50,513 nt of DNA from a virus (Duplodnaviria > Caudoviricetes). Below are positions 2,258 through 50,470 of this stretch, piece by piece (position 1 is the stretch's first letter; each line of letters starts with the position of its first letter). Below the pieces are notes generated by a model that had not been told where the DNA came from, searched no databases, and saw only the letters and a program-made list of their open reading frames with translations. The stretch lies in IMG/VR virus record IMGVR_UViG_3300027773_000160, positions 1-50,513 of that record. One strand, given 5' to 3'. The position numbers and the translations under genes are program-made.

Positions 2258-2286
2258 CGCCCGCTAAGCCTTTGGCCTAGCGGGCG
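2258..2286 (-). terminator. Hairpin directly downstream of the duplicated tRNA 3' end
   Basis: Inverted repeat cgcccgcta...tagcgggcg next to the att repeat. Confidence 0.45.
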
Positions 2287-2287
2287 G

Positions 2288-2336
2288 ATTTGGTTGCGGG
2301 GGTAGGATTTGAACCTACGACCTTCAGGTTATGAGC
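2288..2336. repeat. att direct repeat (3' part of tRNA-Met), left prophage boundary
   Basis: atttggttgcgggggtaggatttgaacctacgaccttcaggttatgagc is identical to 50391-50439. Confidence 0.95.
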
Positions 2337-12834: not shown

Positions 12835-13090
12835 TCGGTGCATGAACCGCAGAACACGTCGAACTTTTGGCTTCAACAATGAAACAGATTTCGGCATGAT
12901 TGCTGGCATGATCGCGGGACGCGCGCCCGCCCCATCCCCGCCGGCCATAGGTTCTTTTTGCCGCCGAGCGTATGCGGGCGGCAAAGGCGCGATGGAAATC
13001 TAGCGTCAGAGTGCAAATCCGATTGCGCACCTTTGGGTGCGCACCCTCGGGTGCGCGGGTGCGCATCGCCTTTTCAAATTCGAGAAGCGC

Positions 13091-13900
13091 TTAACCCTTC
13101 GCTATCGCCAGATTCGTGCTGACCTCGAAAGCGATCCCCGATGAGTCGCTGTAACGTTGCAGCACGGGAGCGCTTTCGGCAACGATAGCCTCTACCACGC
13201 GTTTGCGTTCCTGATCGTCCATTGACTTGCCGGCAGCGCTCATACCGATGAAGGCCATCGTATTCAGCCTCAAGAACACGGCGCCGTCGTCAAAACGTAT
13301 GGTGCGGGACAACGAGCTTGACTGAACGTTCTGGAACCCTGCGTTGCGGAGCAGCGCCTCAAGAGCCGTCGCGTCGCCGAAGCTGTACCGCTGATCCATT
13401 ATGGCGCCCAAATGGCGCTCGGCGACACTGCGTAGCTCCCGGAAGAATGGGATCTCCTCATCGGAGCGCCAGGTAGCCACGGCGATTCGACCGCCTGTCG
13501 CCAAGGCTCGGCGCATCTCACCCGCCGCTGCGGCCTTGTCGGGAAAGAACTGTAACCCTTGTTGGCAGACGACAACGTCGAACTGTTCACCGGCGCGCAG
13601 GGGTAGCGCGTTGGCGTTGCCTTCTCGCCAGTCAATGCTCGGGGCCGCCGAGCGCGCGACAGCCAACATATGGGGACTGACATCAACCCCAAGAACGTAT
13701 CCGGCATCGCCGAGCCGCTCTCTTGCAACACGTGCAACTATTCCCGTCCCGCAAGCAATGTCTAGAACCCGATCCCCTGGAGATAACGCGAGCCGGTCGA
13801 AAGTCATTTCGGCCCACGGCTTGAAGAGCGGTCCGACGAGCCAACGCTCGTACATTTCGGGGAAGCTTGCCTGATCCATCGCGTAGACGGGCAGAGCCAT
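13091..13900 (-). CDS. Class I SAM-dependent (small-molecule) methyltransferase, cargo gene
   Basis: VLDIACGTG and FDVVVCQQGLQFF motifs; GGAGG RBS; opposite strand to the flanking phage genes. Confidence 0.85.
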   Translation of the reverse strand: MALPVYAMDQASFPEMYERWLVGPLFKPWAEMTFDRLALSPGDRVLDIACGTGIVARVARERLGDAGYVLGVDVSPHMLAVARSAAPSIDWREGNANALPLRAGEQFDVVVCQQGLQFFPDKAAAAGEMRRALATGGRIAVATWRSDEEIPFFRELRSVAERHLGAIMDQRYSFGDATALEALLRNAGFQNVQSSSLSRTIRFDDGAVFLRLNTMAFIGMSAAGKSMDDQERKRVVEAIVAESAPVLQRYSDSSGIAFEVSTNLAIAKG

Positions 13901-13953
13901 GATTGCCTCCAATGATCCGAACTGAAACCTAGCTGAAACGGACGCTTTCATCC

Positions 13954-14703
13954 ATGGAGCAGAAGATCGAGAGCCGGGCGATCGAGCGGCTGATCCCTTA
14001 TGTTCGCAACGCGCGGACGCATTCGGAGGATCAGATCGCGCAGATCGCCGCGTCGATCGCCGAGTTCGGCTTCGTCAACCCGGTTCTCATCGGCGCGGAC
14101 GACATGATCGTGGCCGGCCACGGCCGCGTGCTCGCCGCGAAGCTGCTCGGCCTCGCCGAGGTCCCGGTGATCGTGCTCGATCATTTGAGCGAAGCGCAGC
14201 GACGGGCGCTCGTCATCGCCGACAACAAGATCGCAGAGAACGCCGGCTGGGACGAGGCAATGCTGCGGGCGGAGCTCGCGGCGCTGCGCGACGAGGAATT
14301 CGATCTCGACCTGCTCGGCTTCAGCGACGCCGATCTTCTCCGCATGCTCGATTCGATCGACGGCAGTTCTTTGCCGGGGGGCGAGGACGCCGGCGGCTCC
14401 GGTAATCCTCCCGCCGGATCGCCGGCGTCCGAGTCGTCCTCCACTCTGGCGGAGCGCTTCGGGATTCCACCATTCAGCGTGCTCGATGCGCGCAAGGGCT
14501 GGTGGCAGGAGCGCAAGCGGGCTTGGATTGATCTCGGCATTCGCTCGGAGCTCGGCCGCGGCGCCGCGCCCGGCGGAAGTCCGCGTCCGCTCGATCGGGC
14601 GCGTATGGCGAAAGCAGCGGCGCCGGGTGGATCGCCGCTGCCTGCGGCGAACTACTCGAAATCCAAGGCCCGAGGCGACGGCCGCGGCCGGCAGCTGGCA
14701 TGA
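13954..14703 (+). CDS. ParB/Srx N-terminal domain protein
   Basis: LIPYVRNARTHS, IVAGHGRVLAA and LVIADNK motifs. Confidence 0.85.
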   Translation: MEQKIESRAIERLIPYVRNARTHSEDQIAQIAASIAEFGFVNPVLIGADDMIVAGHGRVLAAKLLGLAEVPVIVLDHLSEAQRRALVIADNKIAENAGWDEAMLRAELAALRDEEFDLDLLGFSDADLLRMLDSIDGSSLPGGEDAGGSGNPPAGSPASESSSTLAERFGIPPFSVLDARKGWWQERKRAWIDLGIRSELGRGAAPGGSPRPLDRARMAKAAAPGGSPLPAANYSKSKARGDGRGRQLA

Positions 14704-15491
14704 GCAATCTGACCTTCGTCAAAGGCGACCGCGAGGCGGACGATCTTGATCCGGTCAGCCAAGCGATCCTCGAAGTGGGATCGGGCACATCGATCTTCGA
14801 TCCCGTCATTTGCGAGATCGCCTATCGCTGGTTCTGCCCGCCGGGCGGCACCGTGCTCGATCCCTTCGCCGGCGGTTCGGTTCGCGGCATCGTTGCGTCG
14901 AGGCTTGGGCGCCGCTACGTCGGCATTGAGCTTCGCCCTGAACAGGTGGCGGCGAATATCGCCCAATTGCATCTCGCCGACGGTCCTGAGCCTGAATGGC
15001 GTCAGGGCGATGCGCGCGAGATCGCACGGCTCGCCGCCGACATCGAAGCCGACCTGATCTTCTCGTGCCCGCCTTATTGGAACCTTGAGCGCTATTCGGA
15101 CGATCCGGCCGACTTGTCGAACATGGAGCGCGAAGATTTTTTCGCTGCCTACAGCACGATCATTCGCGACACCCTAGCGCGGCTCCGTGATGATCGGTTT
15201 GCGGTCTGGATTGTCGGCGACGTGCGCGACGATGACGGCTGCTACGTGAACCTGCCCGGCCGCACGGTTGAGGCCTTCGAAGCCGCCGGCGCGCGGCTCT
15301 ACAACGATGCCATCCTGGTTACGGCGGTCGGATCGCTGCCCGTGCGCGTGGGGCGGCAATTCGAAGTCTCGCGCAAGCTCGGCCGCACGCATCAGAACGT
15401 GATGGTCTTCGTCAAAGGCGATCCCCGCAAGGCGACGGAGGCGTGCGGCGCCGTGGAGTTCGGCGAGATCGCGCAAGGAGACGACGCTTGA
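14700..15491 (+). CDS. Phage DNA methyltransferase-like protein
   Basis: VLDPFAGGS SAM motif and FSCPPY catalytic-like motif; ATGA-coupled to ParB. Confidence 0.8.
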   Translation: MSNLTFVKGDREADDLDPVSQAILEVGSGTSIFDPVICEIAYRWFCPPGGTVLDPFAGGSVRGIVASRLGRRYVGIELRPEQVAANIAQLHLADGPEPEWRQGDAREIARLAADIEADLIFSCPPYWNLERYSDDPADLSNMEREDFFAAYSTIIRDTLARLRDDRFAVWIVGDVRDDDGCYVNLPGRTVEAFEAAGARLYNDAILVTAVGSLPVRVGRQFEVSRKLGRTHQNVMVFVKGDPRKATEACGAVEFGEIAQGDDA

Positions 15492-16264
15492 AGCAGGGTA
15501 GCGCATTGGCAGCGCGCGCGGCTCATATCCGCGAGGTAGCCGGTTCGATTCCGGCCCCTGCAACCATTCCAGTTTTGGCCGAGCACGACGGCGTTCTCGT
15601 GGTTCGGGACGATCTTTATCCCGGCGGGACGAAGGCACGATTCATCGGCACATTTTTCGCCGGCGTGGACGAGGCCGTCTACGCGAGCCCGGTGGAGGGC
15701 GGCGCGCAGACGGCGCTGGCAACGGTCGCGCGGCAGCTCGACAAGCGGGCGACGATTTTCGTGGCGCATCGGATTCGTCCGCATCCGCGAACACTTGAAG
15801 CAGCGCGCCTCGGCGCCAAGGTCATCACCGTCCAGCCGGGTTACCTGTCGGTCGTTCAGGCTCGTGCTCGCGAATATTGCGAGCGAACGCGAGCCGCCCT
15901 CGTGCCGTTTGGTGTCGATGCCGAGTTCGTGATCGAGGCAATAGCACATGCGGCGGGCTCGCTCGCCATCGAGCCGGATGAAGTCTGGTGTGCAGCCGGC
16001 TCGGGGGTTCTCGCGCGAGGCCTTGCCCGTGCCTGGCCGGCGGCGCGCCGGCACGTGGTCCGGATCGGACGCGCCTTGTCCCCGACCGACGTCGCCGGAG
16101 CCGTGATCCATGAATACCCGCTTCCGTTCGGGCGAGAGGCACGAAGCAGACCGCCGTTTCCGTCCGATCCGCACTACGACGCGAAGGCCTGGGAGCTATG
16201 CGCGGCCCGGAGGGGGCCGGGCCGCGTGTTGTTCTGGAACGTAGCTGGGCCGGCGCGGCCTTAG
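15488..16264 (+). CDS. PLP-dependent enzyme (ACC deaminase/D-cysteine desulfhydrase-like fold)
   Basis: VVRDDLYPGGTKAR lysine motif, VWCAAGSG, YDAKAW and LFWN. TTG 15488 overlaps the upstream stop and follows AAGGAG; start not certain. Confidence 0.7.
   Translation: MKQGSALAARAAHIREVAGSIPAPATIPVLAEHDGVLVVRDDLYPGGTKARFIGTFFAGVDEAVYASPVEGGAQTALATVARQLDKRATIFVAHRIRPHPRTLEAARLGAKVITVQPGYLSVVQARAREYCERTRAALVPFGVDAEFVIEAIAHAAGSLAIEPDEVWCAAGSGVLARGLARAWPAARRHVVRIGRALSPTDVAGAVIHEYPLPFGREARSRPPFPSDPHYDAKAWELCAARRGPGRVLFWNVAGPARP
15492..15566 (+). tRNA. Phage tRNA with CAT anticodon (Met/fMet-like)
   Basis: Cloverleaf: acceptor GCAGGG/CCCTGC, D stem GCGC/GCGC, anticodon stem CGCGG-CTCATAT-CCGCG, T arm GCCGG-TTCGATT-CCGGC, encoded ACCA. 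Confidence 0.85.
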
Positions 16265-16989
16265 CGCGCCGCCTGCGCCTCAAGCGCCATGATGCAGAGA
16301 TCGCGGTAACGCTTGATCGCCTTCGGGCTTGAACTGACCGGGTTGATCTCGAAGGTGCGCAGGCCGTTGAGGTCGCCGGCCTTCGCAAGCTCGATCACGT
16401 TCGCAAGCTTGTTGCGAAACCGCTTGTGCGTCTCCGCGCTGAAATCCGGCGGCGCGGGCAGCTTGCCGGCGCGGGCGTCGGCCTCGATTTGCGCGCGCTT
16501 GCCGAGCGGGCGCTTGGGCGCTGCGGAGTGCGGTTCGCCGTTTGCCCGCGGCTCCCGTGAAGGATCGGAGACGAGCCTCGCGTCGCGCGCTTCGCTTCGG
16601 CCGTTTGGCTGCTTCTTCAGGCGCCAGGCAAAGCCGTCCTTTGCTTTGACGACCTCGATTTCATCGAGGTTGTGGCCGGCGGCCTTCGCGGCCCGCTGTG
16701 CGTTGAACTTCTTGGCATAGGTCTTCATCGAACTCTCCTTGCTTTCGGTTGGAATGTCGTCGGTGACGAGCGCCGAGCGGCCATCGGCGTCGACGGCGTA
16801 AATCAGGGCGCGGCGCCCGTAGGGATGTTCGGCCTCGAGAGCGGGCGCGGCGTCGTTCCGCGCTTCGGCCAAGGTTCGCGCGGAAGCGTGCGCGTACTTG
16901 CCGCGACCAATGAAGAGCGCGATGTCGAACCGGACCGCATTCGCGATGATCGCGGCATCGCGTTCGCTTGGCGGATGAACTTTCGGCAT
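16261..16989 (-). CDS. Hypothetical protein(s); possible internal start at 16728 (MKTYAKK)
   Basis: Open ORF with GGAGG RBS; a second AAGGAG RBS precedes MKTY. Confidence 0.6.
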   Translation of the reverse strand: MPKVHPPSERDAAIIANAVRFDIALFIGRGKYAHASARTLAEARNDAAPALEAEHPYGRRALIYAVDADGRSALVTDDIPTESKESSMKTYAKKFNAQRAAKAAGHNLDEIEVVKAKDGFAWRLKKQPNGRSEARDARLVSDPSREPRANGEPHSAAPKRPLGKRAQIEADARAGKLPAPPDFSAETHKRFRNKLANVIELAKAGDLNGLRTFEINPVSSSPKAIKRYRDLCIMALEAQAAR

Positions 16990-17091
16990 GGATTGCCCTC
17001 CGTTTGACGGGGGTCACTCAGGCTCGACCCGCGCAGGAGAGCAACTGCCAAGTCACTGGAATTTCGAGCATATCGGGAGCGCTGGAGCAGC

Positions 17092-17670
17092 ATGGGTCTT
17101 TCCCGCAGGGCCTACGCGCGGCACCGCGGGGTGGCCGAGAACGCCGTTCGCAAGGCGATTGCCGCGGGCCGGATCACGCTCGAACCCGACGGCACGATCG
17201 ACCCCGAGAAGGCCGATCGCGACTGGGCCGCGCGCACCGATCCGGCGCAGCAGCGCGGCCGTCATGCGCCCATGGCGGAGAAGTCGGCGCGGGAGCCCGG
17301 TCAGGAAAAGGCGGTCCCGCGCACGGCGCTGGATACCGTTCAGAAGACACTCCGCGAATCCGGAGAAAGGTCGGAAGGCGACGTGACCTTCCTGCGCGCT
17401 CGCACCGCGAACGAGGTGATCAAGGCGCAGGAGCGCAGCGTCCGGCTCGCGAAGATCAAGGGTGAGCTTGTCGATCGGGCGCGCGCCGTCGCCACGGTCT
17501 TCGGCCTGGCGCGTCGCGAGCGCGACGCATGGGTGCAATGGCCCGCACGCGTCGCCGCCCTGATGGCGAACGAGCTCCGCGTCGATCCGCATCAGATGGA
17601 AACGGTTCTGGAAAAGCATGTCCGACGGCATCTCGCCGAGCTCTCGGACCTCCGGGTCGAACTCCGGTGA
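17092..17670 (+). CDS. Terminase small subunit
   Basis: SRRAYARHRGVAENAVRKAI HTH and GELVD motif; directly upstream of the large subunit. Confidence 0.8.
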   Translation: MGLSRRAYARHRGVAENAVRKAIAAGRITLEPDGTIDPEKADRDWAARTDPAQQRGRHAPMAEKSAREPGQEKAVPRTALDTVQKTLRESGERSEGDVTFLRARTANEVIKAQERSVRLAKIKGELVDRARAVATVFGLARRERDAWVQWPARVAALMANELRVDPHQMETVLEKHVRRHLAELSDLRVELR

Positions 17671-19621
17671 GGCCTATGAGGGGGAGGCGGACATCATTCG
17701 CGCCTGGGCGCGCGGTCTCGCGCCCGATCCGGCGCTGACCGTGTCCGAATGGGCGGATCGCCATCGCATCCTTTCCTCGCGCGCTTCCTCGGAGGCGGGC
17801 CGCTATCGGACCGATCGCACCCCATACATGCGCGCGATCATGGACGCGCTGTCGCCCTCGCATCCGGCGCGAAAGATCGTGTTCATGAAAGCGGCGCAGG
17901 TCGGCGCCACCGAATCCGGCAACAACTGGATCGGCTATTGCATTCATCAGGCCCCGGGACCGTTTCTCGCCGTTCAGCCGACCACCGATCTCGCGAAGCG
18001 GCTTTCGCAGCAACGCATCGAGCCGCTAATCGAGGAGAGCCCCGAGCTGCGTGGCATCGTTATGCCGGCGCGCATGCGCGATTCCGGAAACACCGTTCTC
18101 GCGAAGCGCTTTGCCGGCGGGCAGCTCGTCCTTACCGGCGCGAACAGCGCCGTCGGCCTCCGGTCGATGCCGGCGCGCTGGCTCTTCCTCGACGAGGTGG
18201 ACGCCTATCCGGGCGATGTCGAAGGCGAAGGCGATCCCGTGGCGCTAGCCGAAGCGCGCACGAGAACCTTCGGGCATCGCCGGAAGGTGTTCATGGTCTC
18301 GACGCCGACGATACGCGGCCTCTCCCGCATCGAGCGCGAATACGAGGCCTCGGATCGTCGCCGCTACTTCGTCCCCTGCCCGCATTGCCGGTTCATGCAG
18401 TGGCTCAAGTTCGAGCGGCTGCGCTGGGAGAAAGGCCGTCCGGAGACGGCTGAGTACATCTGCGAGAACTGCGAGCGGAGCATTGCCGAGCACCACAAGA
18501 CCGCGATGCTGGCGGGCGGCGAGTGGCGTGCGACCGCCGAATGCACCGATCCTCATGTGATCGGCTTCCACATCTCGGGGCTCTATTCTCCGGTGGGCTG
18601 GCTCTCATGGGCGCAGATCGGTCGCGAGTGGGAGGCGGCGCAGGGCAACGACGCCGCCTTGAAGGCGGCGAAGAACACGCTGCTCGGCGAGACTTGGCAG
18701 GAGCGCGGCGAAGCGCCCGACTGGCAACGCCTCTACGAGCGGACAAAGGATCATGCGCTCAAGACCGTGCCGCGCGGCGCGCTCGTGCTCACCGCCGGCG
18801 CGGACGTTCAGCACGAGCGGATCGAGGTTGATGTCTGGGCTTGGGGCCGCGGCCTCGAAAGCTGGCTTGTCGATCACGTCGTCCTCGAAGGCGACACATC
18901 CGGCAGCACCGTCTGGGACACCCTCACGAAGCTCCTCGGCGCGACCTGGGAGCACGAAAGCGGCGCGCTCATGCGGATCGCGCGCCTTGCCATCGATTCC
19001 GGCGACGGCCGATCGACATCGCAGGTCTATTCCTGGGTGCGGAGGTTCGGTGCGGGAGTCGCGGTTGCCGTCAAGGGCATCGACGGATTCGATCGTTCAA
19101 CACCGGTCGATGGTCCGAGCTATGTGGACGCCACGGAGGACGGCCGAAAAATCCGCCGCGGCGTGAAGTTGTGGAAGGTCTCGGTCGCGGTCTTCAAATC
19201 CGAGACCTATCGTTTCCTGCGGCTTGATCGCCCCACCGACGAAGAGCTTGCCGACGGGATCGCGTTTCCGGACGGCTTCGTGCACCTGCCGGCGGGCATC
19301 ACGGCCGAGTGGGTGAAGCAGCTTACGGCCGAGCAGCTCGTCACGGTCCGTGATCGGCGCGGCTTCTCGAAATTGGAATGGCGGCAGATGCGCGAGCGCA
19401 ACGAGGCCCTCGATTGCCGCGTCTATGCCCGCGCTGCCGCGTGGCTGCTCGGCATCGATCGCTGGACCGAAGCGAAGTGGCAATCGCTCGAGCGGCAGGT
19501 CGCGGACGATCGGCCGAAGGAGCAGCAGGCCGGACAGGTGCATCTGCCGGCAAAGGCCGGCGAGAAGCGGCGTTCGAACTGGTTTCCCGGCCGCGACGCC
19601 GGCAGAGGATGGCTGAGATGA
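17618..19621 (+). CDS. Terminase large subunit (lambda GpA family)
   Basis: KAAQVGATE, FLDEVD, STPT, CPHC/CENC, GADVQ and RNEALDC motifs. Confidence 0.95.
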   Translation: MSDGISPSSRTSGSNSGEAYEGEADIIRAWARGLAPDPALTVSEWADRHRILSSRASSEAGRYRTDRTPYMRAIMDALSPSHPARKIVFMKAAQVGATESGNNWIGYCIHQAPGPFLAVQPTTDLAKRLSQQRIEPLIEESPELRGIVMPARMRDSGNTVLAKRFAGGQLVLTGANSAVGLRSMPARWLFLDEVDAYPGDVEGEGDPVALAEARTRTFGHRRKVFMVSTPTIRGLSRIEREYEASDRRRYFVPCPHCRFMQWLKFERLRWEKGRPETAEYICENCERSIAEHHKTAMLAGGEWRATAECTDPHVIGFHISGLYSPVGWLSWAQIGREWEAAQGNDAALKAAKNTLLGETWQERGEAPDWQRLYERTKDHALKTVPRGALVLTAGADVQHERIEVDVWAWGRGLESWLVDHVVLEGDTSGSTVWDTLTKLLGATWEHESGALMRIARLAIDSGDGRSTSQVYSWVRRFGAGVAVAVKGIDGFDRSTPVDGPSYVDATEDGRKIRRGVKLWKVSVAVFKSETYRFLRLDRPTDEELADGIAFPDGFVHLPAGITAEWVKQLTAEQLVTVRDRRGFSKLEWRQMRERNEALDCRVYARAAAWLLGIDRWTEAKWQSLERQVADDRPKEQQAGQVHLPAKAGEKRRSNWFPGRDAGRGWLR

Positions 19622-49935: not shown

Positions 49936-50390
49936 TATTCGACGAATTTTTTTAATGAACGCACGTGTCTTTTTTGAATATGTGGGACCGCAGCCCAGAT
50001 TGTCAATATTCGCTCAGATAGGCGATCTTATTCGCACATATATTTGGCGAATATGTCGATGCCCGCCGCTATGAGTGATCGGCTGCGCCTTCAGAAGCCT
50101 TTGGTTTCATTATCGTTTTTAGTGCGACACAGCTGCGCTCGATCCTCATCGGTTCCGGCTCGGGCGATTGCCTGTCCGGCCAGTGTGCATCCGCAAGGGC
50201 ACCAGTTGTTGGTTGGCCAGTGGTTTGCGGACGTATCGCGGAGTTGACATGCGAACGCCCCAGACGCGGGTCCGAGGCGTATGGCGTATGTCGCTGGATC
50301 AGCCGTTTTGGCGAGCCTATGGCGAGCCGAAACGCGAAAGCCCCGGTGGTATTCCGGGGCGCTCGCGTAAATCATTGGAAATGCTAGCGA

Positions 50391-50470
<80 letters not shown>

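What the first reader, a model, noticed from the sequence alone, without database searches (positions are those of the whole stretch)
15488..15580. A complete tRNA(CAT) nested on the same strand in the probable 5' coding region of the PLP-enzyme gene
Seen: a full cloverleaf with encoded CCA at 15492-15566 starts one base after the methyltransferase stop. The best-supported start for the PLP gene is TTG 15488 (AAGGAG RBS, TTGA overlap), and this frame reads through the tRNA without a stop (LKQGSALAARAAHIREVAGSIPAPAT) into IPVLAEHDGVLVVRDDL. The alternative TTG 15575 has no evident RBS. The tRNA has mixed identity: an initiator-like 1:72 mismatch (A:A) but an elongator-like C11:G24 pair. Inference: tRNA excision and translation of the enzyme would be mutually exclusive, which could be a processing-based switch on a putative modification operon.
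Basis: partly seen in the sequence, partly recalled or inferred. Interest (0 to 1): 0.8.

Follow-up and report, generated by a model that had tools for sequence, protein, structure and literature searches.

The report
tRNA nested inside a prophage gene
A complete methionine-type tRNA gene lies inside the first 30 codons of a prophage enzyme gene, and related prophages suggest the same DNA is read both as tRNA and as protein, a double use reported only once before in bacteria.

Summary
A 75-nt tRNA(CAT) lies at 15492-15566 (ARAGORN; Rfam 57.6 bits). It starts one base after the methyltransferase stop, and the PLP-like ORF from TTG 15488 reads through it without a stop.

Most relatives lack the tRNA (141 of 172 distinct junctions). 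There the enzyme starts at an SD-led ATG/TTG that overlaps the methylase stop (NTGA).

In all 31 distinct tRNA-bearing junctions:
- that start and its SD are kept, and the frame stays open through the tRNA;
- length variants (87, 90, 93, 105 nt from start to the conserved Glu codon) are all multiples of 3;
- a Pro codon upstream of every later start candidate is always Pro, using all four synonymous codons.

14 of 31 have no start codon between tRNA and Glu. The enzyme body shows dN/dS of 0.07-0.25.

The tRNA itself evolves like an RNA: stems are conserved and it changes far more slowly than synonymous sites. Some lineages hold decayed copies with the frame still kept.

The proposed processing/translation switch is an inference and was not tested. 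The closest precedent is selC nested in selB (Mukai 2021). I rate this a new variant of a known kind.

The parts
13954..14703 (+). ParB-N-domain gene, first gene of the cluster
   Evidence: Pfam ParB_N at 28.5 bits; phrog_15396 ParB-like nuclease, E 3.4e-92.
14700..15491 (+). N6/N4 DNA methyltransferase gene; its stop TGA at 15489-15491 abuts the tRNA
   Evidence: Pfam N6_N4_Mtase at 47.3 bits; phrog_12517 and phrog_498.
15475..15480 (+). Shine-Dalgarno AAGGAG, 7 nt before TTG 15488
   Evidence: Read from the sequence. An SD-like motif precedes the upstream start in 31 of 31 distinct tRNA-bearing junctions.
15488..15490 (+). TTG, proposed start of the PLP-like ORF, overlapping the methylase stop (TTGA)
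   Evidence: Same position as the ATG/TTG start of tRNA-less relatives. An in-frame NTG at -4 or -1 from the tRNA is present in 31 of 31.
15492..15566 (+). tRNA(CAT), initiator-like, 75 nt with encoded CCA, nested in frame (codons 2-27 of the ORF)
   Evidence: Family covariation: 97.8% of cells paired, 11 of 20 pairs with double changes. Variable columns: 6 of 40 in stems against 18 of 35 unpaired.
15569..15571 (+). Conserved Pro codon (CCA), four codons before the conserved Glu; lies upstream of TTG 15575
   Evidence: Pro in 31 of 31 tRNA-bearing junctions, using CCC 10, CCG 8, CCT 8, CCA 5. Pro in 135 of 141 tRNA-less junctions.
15575..15577 (+). TTG, the alternative downstream start (rival reading)
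   Evidence: No SD before it. An in-frame start between the Pro and Glu codons exists in only 17 of 31 junctions.
15488..16264 (+). PLP-enzyme-like ORF (258 codons plus stop) including the tRNA-encoded N-terminal extension
   Evidence: Pfam PALP at 34.6 bits, cut-off 35. phrog_7093, E 3.3e-57. AF2 model with pLDDT 81, residues 1-21 below 50. Fold type II PLP enzymes by Foldseek, prob 1.0. dN/dS 0.07-0.25.
17092..19621 (+). Terminase small and large subunit genes (context: prophage packaging module)
   Evidence: phrog_57; Pfam GpA_ATPase and GpA_nuclease.

Best explanation
The window is a prophage. An initiator-type tRNA(CAU) gene was inserted exactly between the start codon and the second codon of a PLP-enzyme-like gene.

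In the ancestral arrangement that gene is translationally coupled to a DNA methyltransferase gene through an NTGA overlap. The inserted 75 nt are in frame and free of stops. The enzyme is therefore still translated from its original Shine-Dalgarno site and start (TTG 15488), straight through the tRNA sequence. This adds about 26 tRNA-encoded, probably disordered residues to its N-terminus.

The same DNA is still kept as a foldable tRNA in this lineage. On any one transcript the two products exclude each other. Cutting out the tRNA (RNase P at 15491/15492, then 3' trimming) removes the enzyme's start codon and SD. A translating ribosome, in turn, unfolds the tRNA.

Shown by comparison: the nested reading frame and selection on it; selection on the tRNA as an RNA.
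Inferred: that the tRNA is processed and charged; that competition between processing and translation sets the enzyme level.
For: 1. Ancestral state. 141 of 172 distinct junctions have no tRNA. In these the enzyme begins M-T-A-P-I/V-V/L: Met at codon -7 in 101 of 141 and Pro at -4 in 135 of 141. The start overlaps the methylase stop and follows an SD (sequences). L105, which has no tRNA, uses TTGA.

2. tRNA-bearing junctions. 42 of 210 usable loci have the tRNA, giving 31 distinct sequences.
- The frame is open through the tRNA in 31 of 31.
- The upstream NTG is present in 31 of 31, and an SD-like motif in 31 of 31.
- No start codon lies between the tRNA 3' end and the Pro codon in any of 31.
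- No start lies between the Pro and Glu codons in 14 of 31.
- 5 of 31 have no start inside the tRNA either.

3. Length. The distance from the -4 codon to the Glu codon is 93, 105, 90 or 87 nt. That is at least three separate length changes (-3, +12, -6), all multiples of 3.

4. The Pro codon uses all four synonymous codons and is always Pro. This is a coding signature upstream of TTG 15575.

5. The enzyme is under purifying selection in tRNA-bearing lineages: dN/dS 0.07-0.25, with dS up to 1.66.

6. The tRNA behaves as an RNA.
- Rfam 57.6 bits.
- Variable columns are 6 of 40 in stems against 18 of 35 unpaired, Fisher p 0.0011.
- There is no excess at third codon positions: 6, 9 and 9 at positions 1, 2 and 3.
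- Only 1-11 of 75 nt differ from the window where dS of the neighbouring gene is 0.19-1.2.
- Family covariation: 0 of 500 shuffles reach the observed value.

7. Decayed copies keep the frame. These are the 72-nt class (below the Rfam cut-off in 4 of 4 tested), L087 (CAT changed to CCT, 43.7 bits) and L083 (12-nt insert, 36.3 bits).

8. Ordinary intergenic copies of the same tRNA family (L242, L323) have their own SD and ATG after the tRNA. The PLP junction has none.

9. The AF2 model leaves residues 1-21 disordered, and its first strand spans residues 29-33, beginning one residue before TTG 15575 (residue 30).
Against: - There are no expression, RNA-end or peptide data. RNA-run contigs were uninformative.
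- The 31 junctions descend from one or a few insertions (5 changes on a FastTree tree, at least 2 forced), so they are not independent. The length argument rests on only about three events, roughly p 0.04 under neutrality.
- The tRNA sequence itself is stop-free in this frame, so part of the open frame is simply inherited.
- 17 of 31 junctions, the window included, do have a start codon between the Pro and Glu codons. NCBI's own annotation of a relative starts there (P0031, 230 aa).
- TTG is a weak start codon.
- The window tRNA has A1:A72 and C11:G24, no promoter of its own was found, and some relatives carry decaying copies. The tRNA may therefore no longer work as a tRNA.
- One tRNA-bearing locus (L080) has a stop in the enzyme body.
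Confidence: 0.65

Rival explanations
1. This is an ordinary tRNA gene between two genes. The enzyme starts at TTG 15575 (229 aa), and the open frame through the tRNA is a by-product of a stop-free tRNA sequence that happens to be in phase.
For: - The window has an in-frame TTG at 15575, and 17 of 31 junctions have a start between the Pro and Glu codons.
- 229-230-aa gene calls exist (P0010, P0015, P0031).
- For a single insertion, being in phase and stop-free has a chance of roughly 1 in 3 to 1 in 6. Only one frame of the tRNA is open.
- In other phage contexts, 12 of 79 copies of this tRNA family also lie in a long stop-free frame, several of them clearly spurious.
Against: - There is no SD before 15575.
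- 14 of 31 junctions have no such start.
- The Pro codon upstream of it is always Pro with all four synonymous codons.
- All length variants are multiples of 3.
- In 137 of 140 tRNA-less junctions an in-frame start lies upstream of that Pro.
- Decayed tRNA copies still keep the frame.
Confidence: 0.15
2. The tRNA is a relic. It no longer yields a working tRNA and survives only as the coding sequence of an N-terminal extension; the ORF reads through it, but there is no dual use and no switch.
For: - Decay in relatives: the 72-nt class is below the Rfam cut-off.
- L087 has anticodon CCT plus stem mismatches, and L083 has a 12-nt insert.
- L080, L085 and L088 have single stem mismatches.
- The window copy has A1:A72 and C11:G24.
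- No promoter-like site was found next to it.
- tRNA-like remnants lie inside other phage ORFs (L279, L281).
Against: - In the 75-nt class, changes avoid the stems (6 of 40 against 18 of 35).
- Four of the seven stem changes keep a G:U pair.
- Third codon positions are no freer than the others.
- The stretch changes 1-15% where synonymous sites of the next gene change 0.19-1.2 per site. A disordered peptide would not explain that.
- The window copy has all four stems intact and scores 57.6 bits.
Confidence: 0.17
3. The enzyme gene is dead in tRNA-bearing prophages, with the insertion having knocked it out, so the frame has no meaning.
For: One of the 31 (L080) has a stop in the enzyme body.
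Against: - dN/dS is 0.07-0.25 over 222-227 codons in 17 pairs, with dS up to 1.66.
- ORFs are intact in 30 of 31.
- 1692 homologues were found.
Confidence: 0.03

Closest known systems
selC (tRNA-Sec) nested inside the selB ORF of Alphaproteobacteria (Mukai 2021, PMC8124441; I read parts 1-2 of 3, covering all of the main text)
   Same: - An entire tRNA lies on the same strand inside a bacterial protein ORF and is translated as an extension.
- The frame is kept among relatives, and tRNA lengths are mostly multiples of 3.
- Remnant or degenerate tRNA copies are left inside ORFs in some lineages.
- The proposed model is the same: folding and processing of the tRNA and expression of the protein are alternatives.
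- The evidence is bioinformatic only.
- The host class is the same (Alphaproteobacteria).
   Different: - There the tRNA sits at the 3' end, giving a C-terminal extension after a complete protein, and the tRNA and protein are functional partners.
- Here it sits at the 5' end, one base after the start codon, so processing would remove the SD and start and abolish the whole protein.
- Here the tRNA is an initiator-like tRNA(CAU) with no known link to the enzyme.
- Here the element is a prophage.
- That paper calls itself the first report of a nested tRNA in a bacterial ORF. My searches found no later case at a 5' end or in a phage.
Mitochondrial tRNA-Lys inside cox1 of Armadillidium vulgare (Doublet et al. 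2015; seen only as cited in PMC8124441, not read)
   Same: A tRNA is fully integrated in direct orientation in a protein-coding region. Processing and translation are thought to be alternatives.
   Different: That is a compact animal mitochondrial genome with a reduced 60-nt tRNA. This is a 48-kb prophage with no evident pressure for compaction.
Bacterial initiator tRNA(fMet)
   Same: - CAU anticodon.
- No Watson-Crick 1:72 pair.
- G2:C71, C3:G70 and A73.
- G30:C40 and G31:C39, as in the host-type initiator at 50394-50470 of the same window.
   Different: - A1:A72 instead of C1:A72.
- C29:G41 instead of G29:C41.
- C11:G24 instead of A11:U24.
- U38 in the anticodon loop.
The identity rules are recalled textbook knowledge. 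No isotype-specific model was available.
tRNA-mRNA co-transcripts such as the tufB operon or phage tRNA clusters (recalled)
   Same: The tRNA has no promoter of its own and would be cut out of a longer transcript that also carries coding genes.
   Different: In those cases the tRNAs lie between genes, and the downstream gene has its own ribosome-binding site. Here the tRNA lies inside the ORF.

Membership tests
tRNA (Rfam RF00005) | Score at or above the curated gathering score | tested here: met
   57.6 bits against 29, E 1.6e-11.
tRNA (Rfam RF00005) | Cloverleaf with four stems, 7-nt anticodon loop with U33, T-loop, 3' CCA | tested here: met
   ARAGORN drawing and MFE fold. Anticodon loop CUCAUAU, T-loop UUCGAUU, CCA encoded. 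The only non-standard pair is 1:72.
tRNA (Rfam RF00005) | Structure kept by compensatory changes among relatives | tested here: met
   A3, 16 family members: 97.8% of cells paired, 11 of 20 pairs with changes on both sides, 0 of 500 shuffles as high, slid controls at most 44% paired.
Bacterial initiator tRNA(fMet) | Mismatch at 1:72 (canonically C1xA72) | tested here: inconclusive
   The window has A1:A72. Relatives have C:A, G:A, U:A, U:U or C:U. A mismatch is present, but not the canonical one.
Bacterial initiator tRNA(fMet) | Three consecutive G:C pairs 29:41, 30:40, 31:39 | tested here: not met
   C29:G41, G30:C40, G31:C39. The host-type initiator in the same window also departs from the rule (A29:U41). 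The 72-nt relatives have all three.
Bacterial initiator tRNA(fMet) | A11:U24 (purine 11 : pyrimidine 24) | tested here: not met
   C11:G24 in the window. A:U occurs in 4 of 16 family members and G:C in 2 of 16.
Bacterial initiator tRNA(fMet) | Formylation by MTF and use in the P site | not testable with these tools
   Needs biochemistry.
tRNA nested in a protein ORF (selC-in-selB type, PMC8124441) | Whole tRNA on the same strand inside an open frame that joins real coding sequence | tested here: met
   The enzyme body is under purifying selection.
tRNA nested in a protein ORF (selC-in-selB type, PMC8124441) | Frame kept across diverged relatives, including length variants | tested here: met
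   31 of 31 distinct junctions open; distances 87, 90, 93 and 105 nt.
tRNA nested in a protein ORF (selC-in-selB type, PMC8124441) | The tRNA stretch is actually translated, and the tRNA is actually processed | not testable with these tools
   RNA-run contigs were uninformative. Not shown in the precedent either.
Fold-type II PLP enzymes (Pfam PF00291 PALP) | Pfam score at or above the cut-off | tested here: inconclusive
   34.6 bits against 35 for the window protein. The Mae-JY30 homologue scores 46.3 bits and the Pam4 fusion 35.5 bits.
Fold-type II PLP enzymes (Pfam PF00291 PALP) | Fold like solved members | tested here: met
   Foldseek prob 1.0, TM 0.60-0.70 to threonine deaminase, D-cysteine desulfhydrase and an ACC-deaminase homologue, at about 17% identity. 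No match by sequence in the PDB.
Fold-type II PLP enzymes (Pfam PF00291 PALP) | Schiff-base lysine and PLP binding | not tested
   K49 in GGTKARF is invariant in 23 of 23 aligned sequences. Its equivalence to the PLP lysine is recalled, not aligned here. The protein is about 90 residues shorter than solved members.

The most novel reading that the evidence does not exclude
Phage-borne initiator-like tRNA genes repeatedly land in frame at gene starts, right after an NTGA stop/start overlap, or inside ORFs. They are first used doubly, as tRNA and as coding sequence, with RNase P and the ribosome competing for the same transcript. Later they decay into ordinary protein sequence. On this reading tRNA genes would be both a source of new protein N-termini and linkers and a processing-based throttle on phage late-operon enzymes.

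Hints beyond this locus:
- A good tRNA (59.5 bits) lies after a TTGA and in frame with a terminase small subunit in L302.
- Sub-threshold tRNA-like stretches lie mid-ORF in L279, L293, L322 and L281.
Probability: 0.3. Interest if true: 0.85.

Novelty: new variant of a known kind. Interest (0 to 1): 0.7.

Why it matters
If true, this is the second kind of tRNA nested in a bacterial ORF, and the first at a 5' end, the first in a phage, and the first with an initiator-type tRNA.

- **Consequence of position.** At the 5' end, maturation of the tRNA would behead the mRNA of a conserved enzyme. That makes a simple, testable system for competition between RNase P and the ribosome on one transcript.
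- **Evolution.** It shows how a non-coding gene can be absorbed into protein sequence. Intact, mutated and decayed stages can all be seen side by side in relatives.
- **Annotation.** Pipelines that mask tRNAs first shorten this gene to a start that lacks an SD and drops conserved residues. Pipelines that do not mask hide the tRNA inside a CDS.

Tried and rejected
- **RNA evidence.** One run search gave three RNA runs with 8% of the words. Laid together with one DNA run, they gave only low-depth contigs of relatives, no raw reads, no ends, and no contig bridging methylase, tRNA and enzyme at high identity. This gives no verdict on transcription or processing.
- **Host genome.** The genome held for this window is the 50.5-kb contig alone. 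The host's full set of CAT tRNAs (elongator Met, Ile2) could not be compared, and no isotype-specific tRNA model was on hand.
- **PDB by sequence.** No match.
- **Promoter and terminator scan of 13000-17800.** Nothing next to the tRNA beyond chance.
- **The tRNA as a phage attachment site.** Rejected. Its 3' half occurs once in the window. The att repeat is the host initiator tRNA's 3' part, at 2265-2336 and 50368-50439.
- **Hidden broken tRNA remnants among tRNA-less junctions.** blastn-short found 1 weak hit on the opposite strand in 140. My reading of the 55-nt insert in L171 as a remnant is therefore unsupported.
- **A second conserved case.** Relatives of the L302 terminase small subunit have a tRNA upstream in 0 of 80, so L302 is a single instance.
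- **Tree of the enzyme.** FastTree only, 168 rows, with 4 rows dropped for stops (L006, L045, L080, L180). The tRNA state needs 5 changes, of which 2 are forced by well-supported branches. One origin versus several could not be settled, and phage mosaicism is likely (L083).
- **Literature.** Searches found only PMC8124441 as a precedent. The library lacks most subscription journals, and supplements were closed.
Full report
**1. The observation**

ARAGORN calls a 75-nt tRNA-Met(cat) at 15492-15566 on the + strand. Rfam's tRNA model scores it 57.6 bits against a cut-off of 29 and marks only the 1:72 pair as non-standard. The minimum-energy fold is the cloverleaf, although the energy alone is not unusual for this composition: z -1.56.

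- AAGGAG at 15475-15480.
- TTG at 15488, overlapping the methylase stop TGA at 15489-15491.
- The tRNA starting at the next base, with an encoded CCA.
- A1:A72 and C11:G24.
- No SD-like motif before TTG 15575.

The frame from 15488 runs open to 16264. It is the only one of the tRNA's three frames without a stop.

**2. Surroundings**

The window is almost wholly a prophage.
- A 72-nt direct repeat (2265-2336 and 50368-50439) holds the 3' part of a host-type initiator tRNA, whose full copy lies at 50394-50470 on the - strand. The phage therefore sits in the host tRNA-fMet gene.
- The finding lies in a cluster made of a ParB-N gene (13954-14703), an N6/N4 DNA methyltransferase (14700-15491), the tRNA, and a PLP-enzyme-like gene (to 16264). 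Terminase small and large subunit genes follow.
- The enzyme has a fold type II PLP fold: AF2 pLDDT 81, Foldseek prob 1.0, TM 0.60-0.70 to threonine deaminase, D-cysteine desulfhydrase and an ACC-deaminase homologue.
- It is shorter than those enzymes. It sits just under Pfam's PALP cut-off (34.6 against 35) and has no PDB relative by sequence.
- In Pseudanabaena phage Pam4 the methylase and PALP parts are one 829-aa protein. In Microcystis phage Mae-JY30 they are adjacent genes. Neither has a tRNA. The two enzymes therefore belong together. What they do jointly is not known.

**3. What relatives without the tRNA show**

I fetched 228 related loci (68 genome, 80 metagenome, 80 viral). Of the 229 records with a tblastn hit (228 of the 231 loci fetched up, plus the window), 210 hold the gene's N-terminus and at least 160 nt upstream. 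These give 172 distinct junctions, and 141 of them have no tRNA.

In the tRNA-less junctions:
- The enzyme starts M-T-A-P-I/V-V/L-x-E/x-H. Met is at codon -7 from the conserved Glu position in 101 of 141, and Pro is at -4 in 135 of 141.
- The ATG (or TTG in L105) overlaps the methylase stop as NTGA and is preceded by GGAG-type SDs.
- An in-frame start lies upstream of the Pro codon in 137 of 140.

**4. What relatives with the tRNA show**

42 of the 210 loci have a + strand tRNA directly before the gene (41 CAT, 1 CCT). These give 31 distinct junction sequences. In genome contigs, only 2 of 68 loci have it.

| Feature | Count |
|---|---|
| Enzyme frame open through the whole tRNA | 31 of 31 |
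| In-frame TTG or ATG at -4 (or ATG at -1), the ancestral start position | 31 of 31 |
| SD-like motif before that start | 31 of 31 |
| Start codon between the tRNA 3' end and the Pro codon | 0 of 31 |
| No start between the Pro and Glu codons | 14 of 31 |
| No in-frame start inside the tRNA either | 5 of 31 |

The distance from the -4 codon to the Glu codon takes four values:
- 93 nt: the 75-nt class, plus L162.
- 105 nt: L083, which has a 12-nt insert. The same insert stands in an unrelated DNA run, X2.
- 90 nt: the 72-nt class.
- 87 nt: L088, L090, L114 and L175. Here the tRNA's 3' end runs directly into the Pro codon.

All four are multiples of 3. The Pro codon is Pro in 31 of 31 while using CCC, CCG, CCT and CCA. 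The first two positions are fixed and the third is free, so it is translated. It lies upstream of TTG 15575.

The enzyme body is under purifying selection in these lineages: dN/dS 0.07-0.25, with dS up to 1.66. A dead gene is therefore excluded. One locus, L080, has a stop in the body.

**5. The tRNA as an RNA**

Among 16 sequences of the 73-75-nt classes (all at or above the Rfam cut-off where tested):
- Variable columns are 6 of 40 in stems against 18 of 35 unpaired (Fisher p 0.0011).
- Variable columns fall 6, 9 and 9 on codon positions 1, 2 and 3. The stretch therefore does not evolve like ordinary coding sequence.
- It differs from the window at 1-11 of 75 nt in lineages where synonymous sites of the enzyme gene differ by 0.19-1.2 per site.

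Over 16 members of the wider family, including other phage contexts and the host initiator, 97.8% of cells pair, 11 of 20 pairs show changes on both sides, and no shuffle reaches this.

Some copies are decaying:
- The 72-nt class has a 3-bp D stem, A8 and C33. It falls below Rfam's cut-off in 4 of 4 loci tested; the best match is tRNA-Sec at 23.8 bits.
- L087 has anticodon CCT and stem mismatches (43.7 bits).
- L083 scores 36.3 bits.
- L080, L085 and L088 each have one broken pair.

All of these keep the frame. The reading-frame constraint therefore outlasts the tRNA constraint.

**6. Identity of the tRNA**

By recalled identity rules it is initiator-like: no Watson-Crick 1:72 pair, G2:C71, C3:G70, A73, G30:C40 and G31:C39. 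It departs at C29:G41, C11:G24 and U38. The host-type initiator in the same window also has a non-G:C 29:41 pair. Position 1 varies among relatives (A, C, G, U). No isotype model was available, so its membership among initiators stays open.

**7. Mechanism**

Shown:
- The ORF including the tRNA is the unit under selection.
- The tRNA fold is also under selection in this lineage.

Inferred:
- The cluster is one transcript, since no promoter or terminator pattern stands beside the tRNA.
- Ribosomes finishing the methylase at TGA restart at the overlapping TTG and read through the tRNA. This gives an enzyme with a disordered extension of about 26 residues (pLDDT below 50 for residues 1-21).
- Transcripts on which the tRNA folds first are cut by RNase P at 15491/15492 and trimmed at the 3' end. 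That yields a tRNA, a methylase mRNA ending at its stop codon, and an enzyme mRNA without SD or start.

Whether cells use this as a regulated switch is untested.

**8. Rivals**

- **An ordinary intergenic tRNA with a start at 15575 (0.15).** This fits the window alone. It does not fit the Pro codon, the 14 junctions without such a start, or the length pattern.
- **A relic tRNA that now only codes (0.17).** This fits the decayed copies. It does not fit the stem-sparing, slow change of the 75-nt class.
- **A dead enzyme gene (0.03).** This is excluded by dN/dS.

**9. Comparison with what is known**

Mukai 2021 (PMC8124441, main text read) predicted tRNA-Sec nested in the 3' end of selB in Alphaproteobacteria. 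That case has frame-keeping lengths, remnants, and the same either/or model. The paper called it the first nested tRNA in a bacterial ORF, and it cites a mitochondrial tRNA-Lys inside cox1.

The present case differs in several ways:
- Position: the 5' end, one base after the start codon, so processing abolishes the protein rather than trimming it.
- The kind of tRNA.
- The carrier, which is a prophage.
- The lack of any functional tie between tRNA and enzyme.

My searches found no such case in print, within the limits of the library. I file it as a new variant of a known kind.

**10. Beyond this locus**

ARAGORN confirmed a tRNA in 103. Of these, 16 are PLP junctions and 87 are other contexts (81 CAT).

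- 12 of 79 eligible other-context copies lie in a stop-free frame that runs on for at least 150 codons. Several are plainly spurious high-GC frames.
- L302 has a good tRNA (59.5 bits) right after a TTGA and in frame with a terminase small subunit. Its Pfam domain starts 6 residues after the tRNA-coded part, with no start codon between. None of 80 relatives of that terminase share it.
- Sub-threshold tRNA-like stretches lie mid-ORF in L279, L293 and L322, and in a 2033-codon frame in L281 right after a ParB C-terminal domain hit.

These suggest the phenomenon recurs, but I did not test them further.

**11. Limits**

- All evidence is comparative.
- The junctions are related by descent.
- The origin count is unsettled.
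- No transcript or peptide data exist.
- The host genome beyond this contig was not available.

Noticed in passing
window 2265-2336 and 50368-50439; tRNA at 50394-50470 (-): A 72-nt direct repeat (86%) holds the 3' 46 nt of a host-type initiator tRNA (C1:A72, A11:U24, A29:U41/G30:C40/G31:C39), whose full copy is at 50394-50470. The prophage (about 48 kb) is therefore integrated in the host tRNA-fMet gene, while carrying an initiator-like tRNA of its own.
   Followed up: partly
L302:10526-10600 (-), ORF L302:9933-10628 (-): A second architecture of the same kind. A good tRNA(CAT) (Rfam 59.5 bits) lies directly after a TTGA and in frame with a terminase small subunit. Pfam Terminase_2 begins 6 residues after the tRNA-coded part, with no start codon between. 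None of 80 relatives of that terminase has a tRNA there.
   Followed up: partly
L279:7423-7493 (+), L322:6994-7064 (-), L293; L281:7399-7470 (-): 71-72-nt tRNA-like stretches (called by ARAGORN, below the Rfam cut-off) lie in frame in the middle of long ORFs. One is an Ala/Pro-rich protein of unknown family, with an in-frame 6-nt indel between L279 and L322. The other is a 2033-codon frame, right after a ParB C-terminal domain hit. They may be tRNA genes turned into coding linkers.
   Followed up: partly
L002:1529-4018 (Pseudanabaena phage Pam4 gp70); L001:2880-4471 (Microcystis phage Mae-JY30): Pam4 encodes the methylase and PALP domains as one 829-aa protein. Mae-JY30 has them as overlapping neighbours, and the PALP gene is annotated there as 'DNA modification methylase'. 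Neither has a tRNA. This argues for a joint but unknown function of methylase and PLP-like enzyme.
   Followed up: partly
L083:2406-2492; DNA run X2 laid on window 15534-15540: A 12-nt in-frame insertion in the variable/T-stem region of the tRNA (Rfam falls to 36.3 bits) is found in two unrelated data sets, so it is a real variant.
   Followed up: yes
L087:315-389; L005:2918-2992; L165 class; L347, L279: Anticodon-loop oddities in the family: CAT changed to CCT in L087; C33 instead of U33 in L005, the 72-nt class, L347 and L279; position 38 is U or C and position 37 sometimes G, against A37 A38 in the host initiator. This could bear on escape from anticodon nucleases (idea from the abstract of PMC10264068; not tested).
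   Followed up: no
L003:3001-3075 (Mesorhizobium phage vB_MseS-P1): An 81%-identical tRNA(CAT) (Rfam 59.8 bits) lies inside the 3' part of a CDS annotated 'transcriptional repressor' (L003:2652-3152). The record lists no tRNA there. This is probably an over-extended gene call, but I did not check it.
   Followed up: no
L171 (about 55 nt between methylase stop and enzyme); L095, L127, L041: Some tRNA-less relatives have other short inserts or longer N-termini ending in ..APAP.. before the conserved Pro. I first read these as tRNA remnants, but BLAST gives no support for that.
   Followed up: partly
L004:5979-6055 (-): In the closest genome relative, the host-type initiator tRNA lies only 3 kb beyond the enzyme gene, against 35 kb in the window. 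That element may be a shortened prophage.
   Followed up: no
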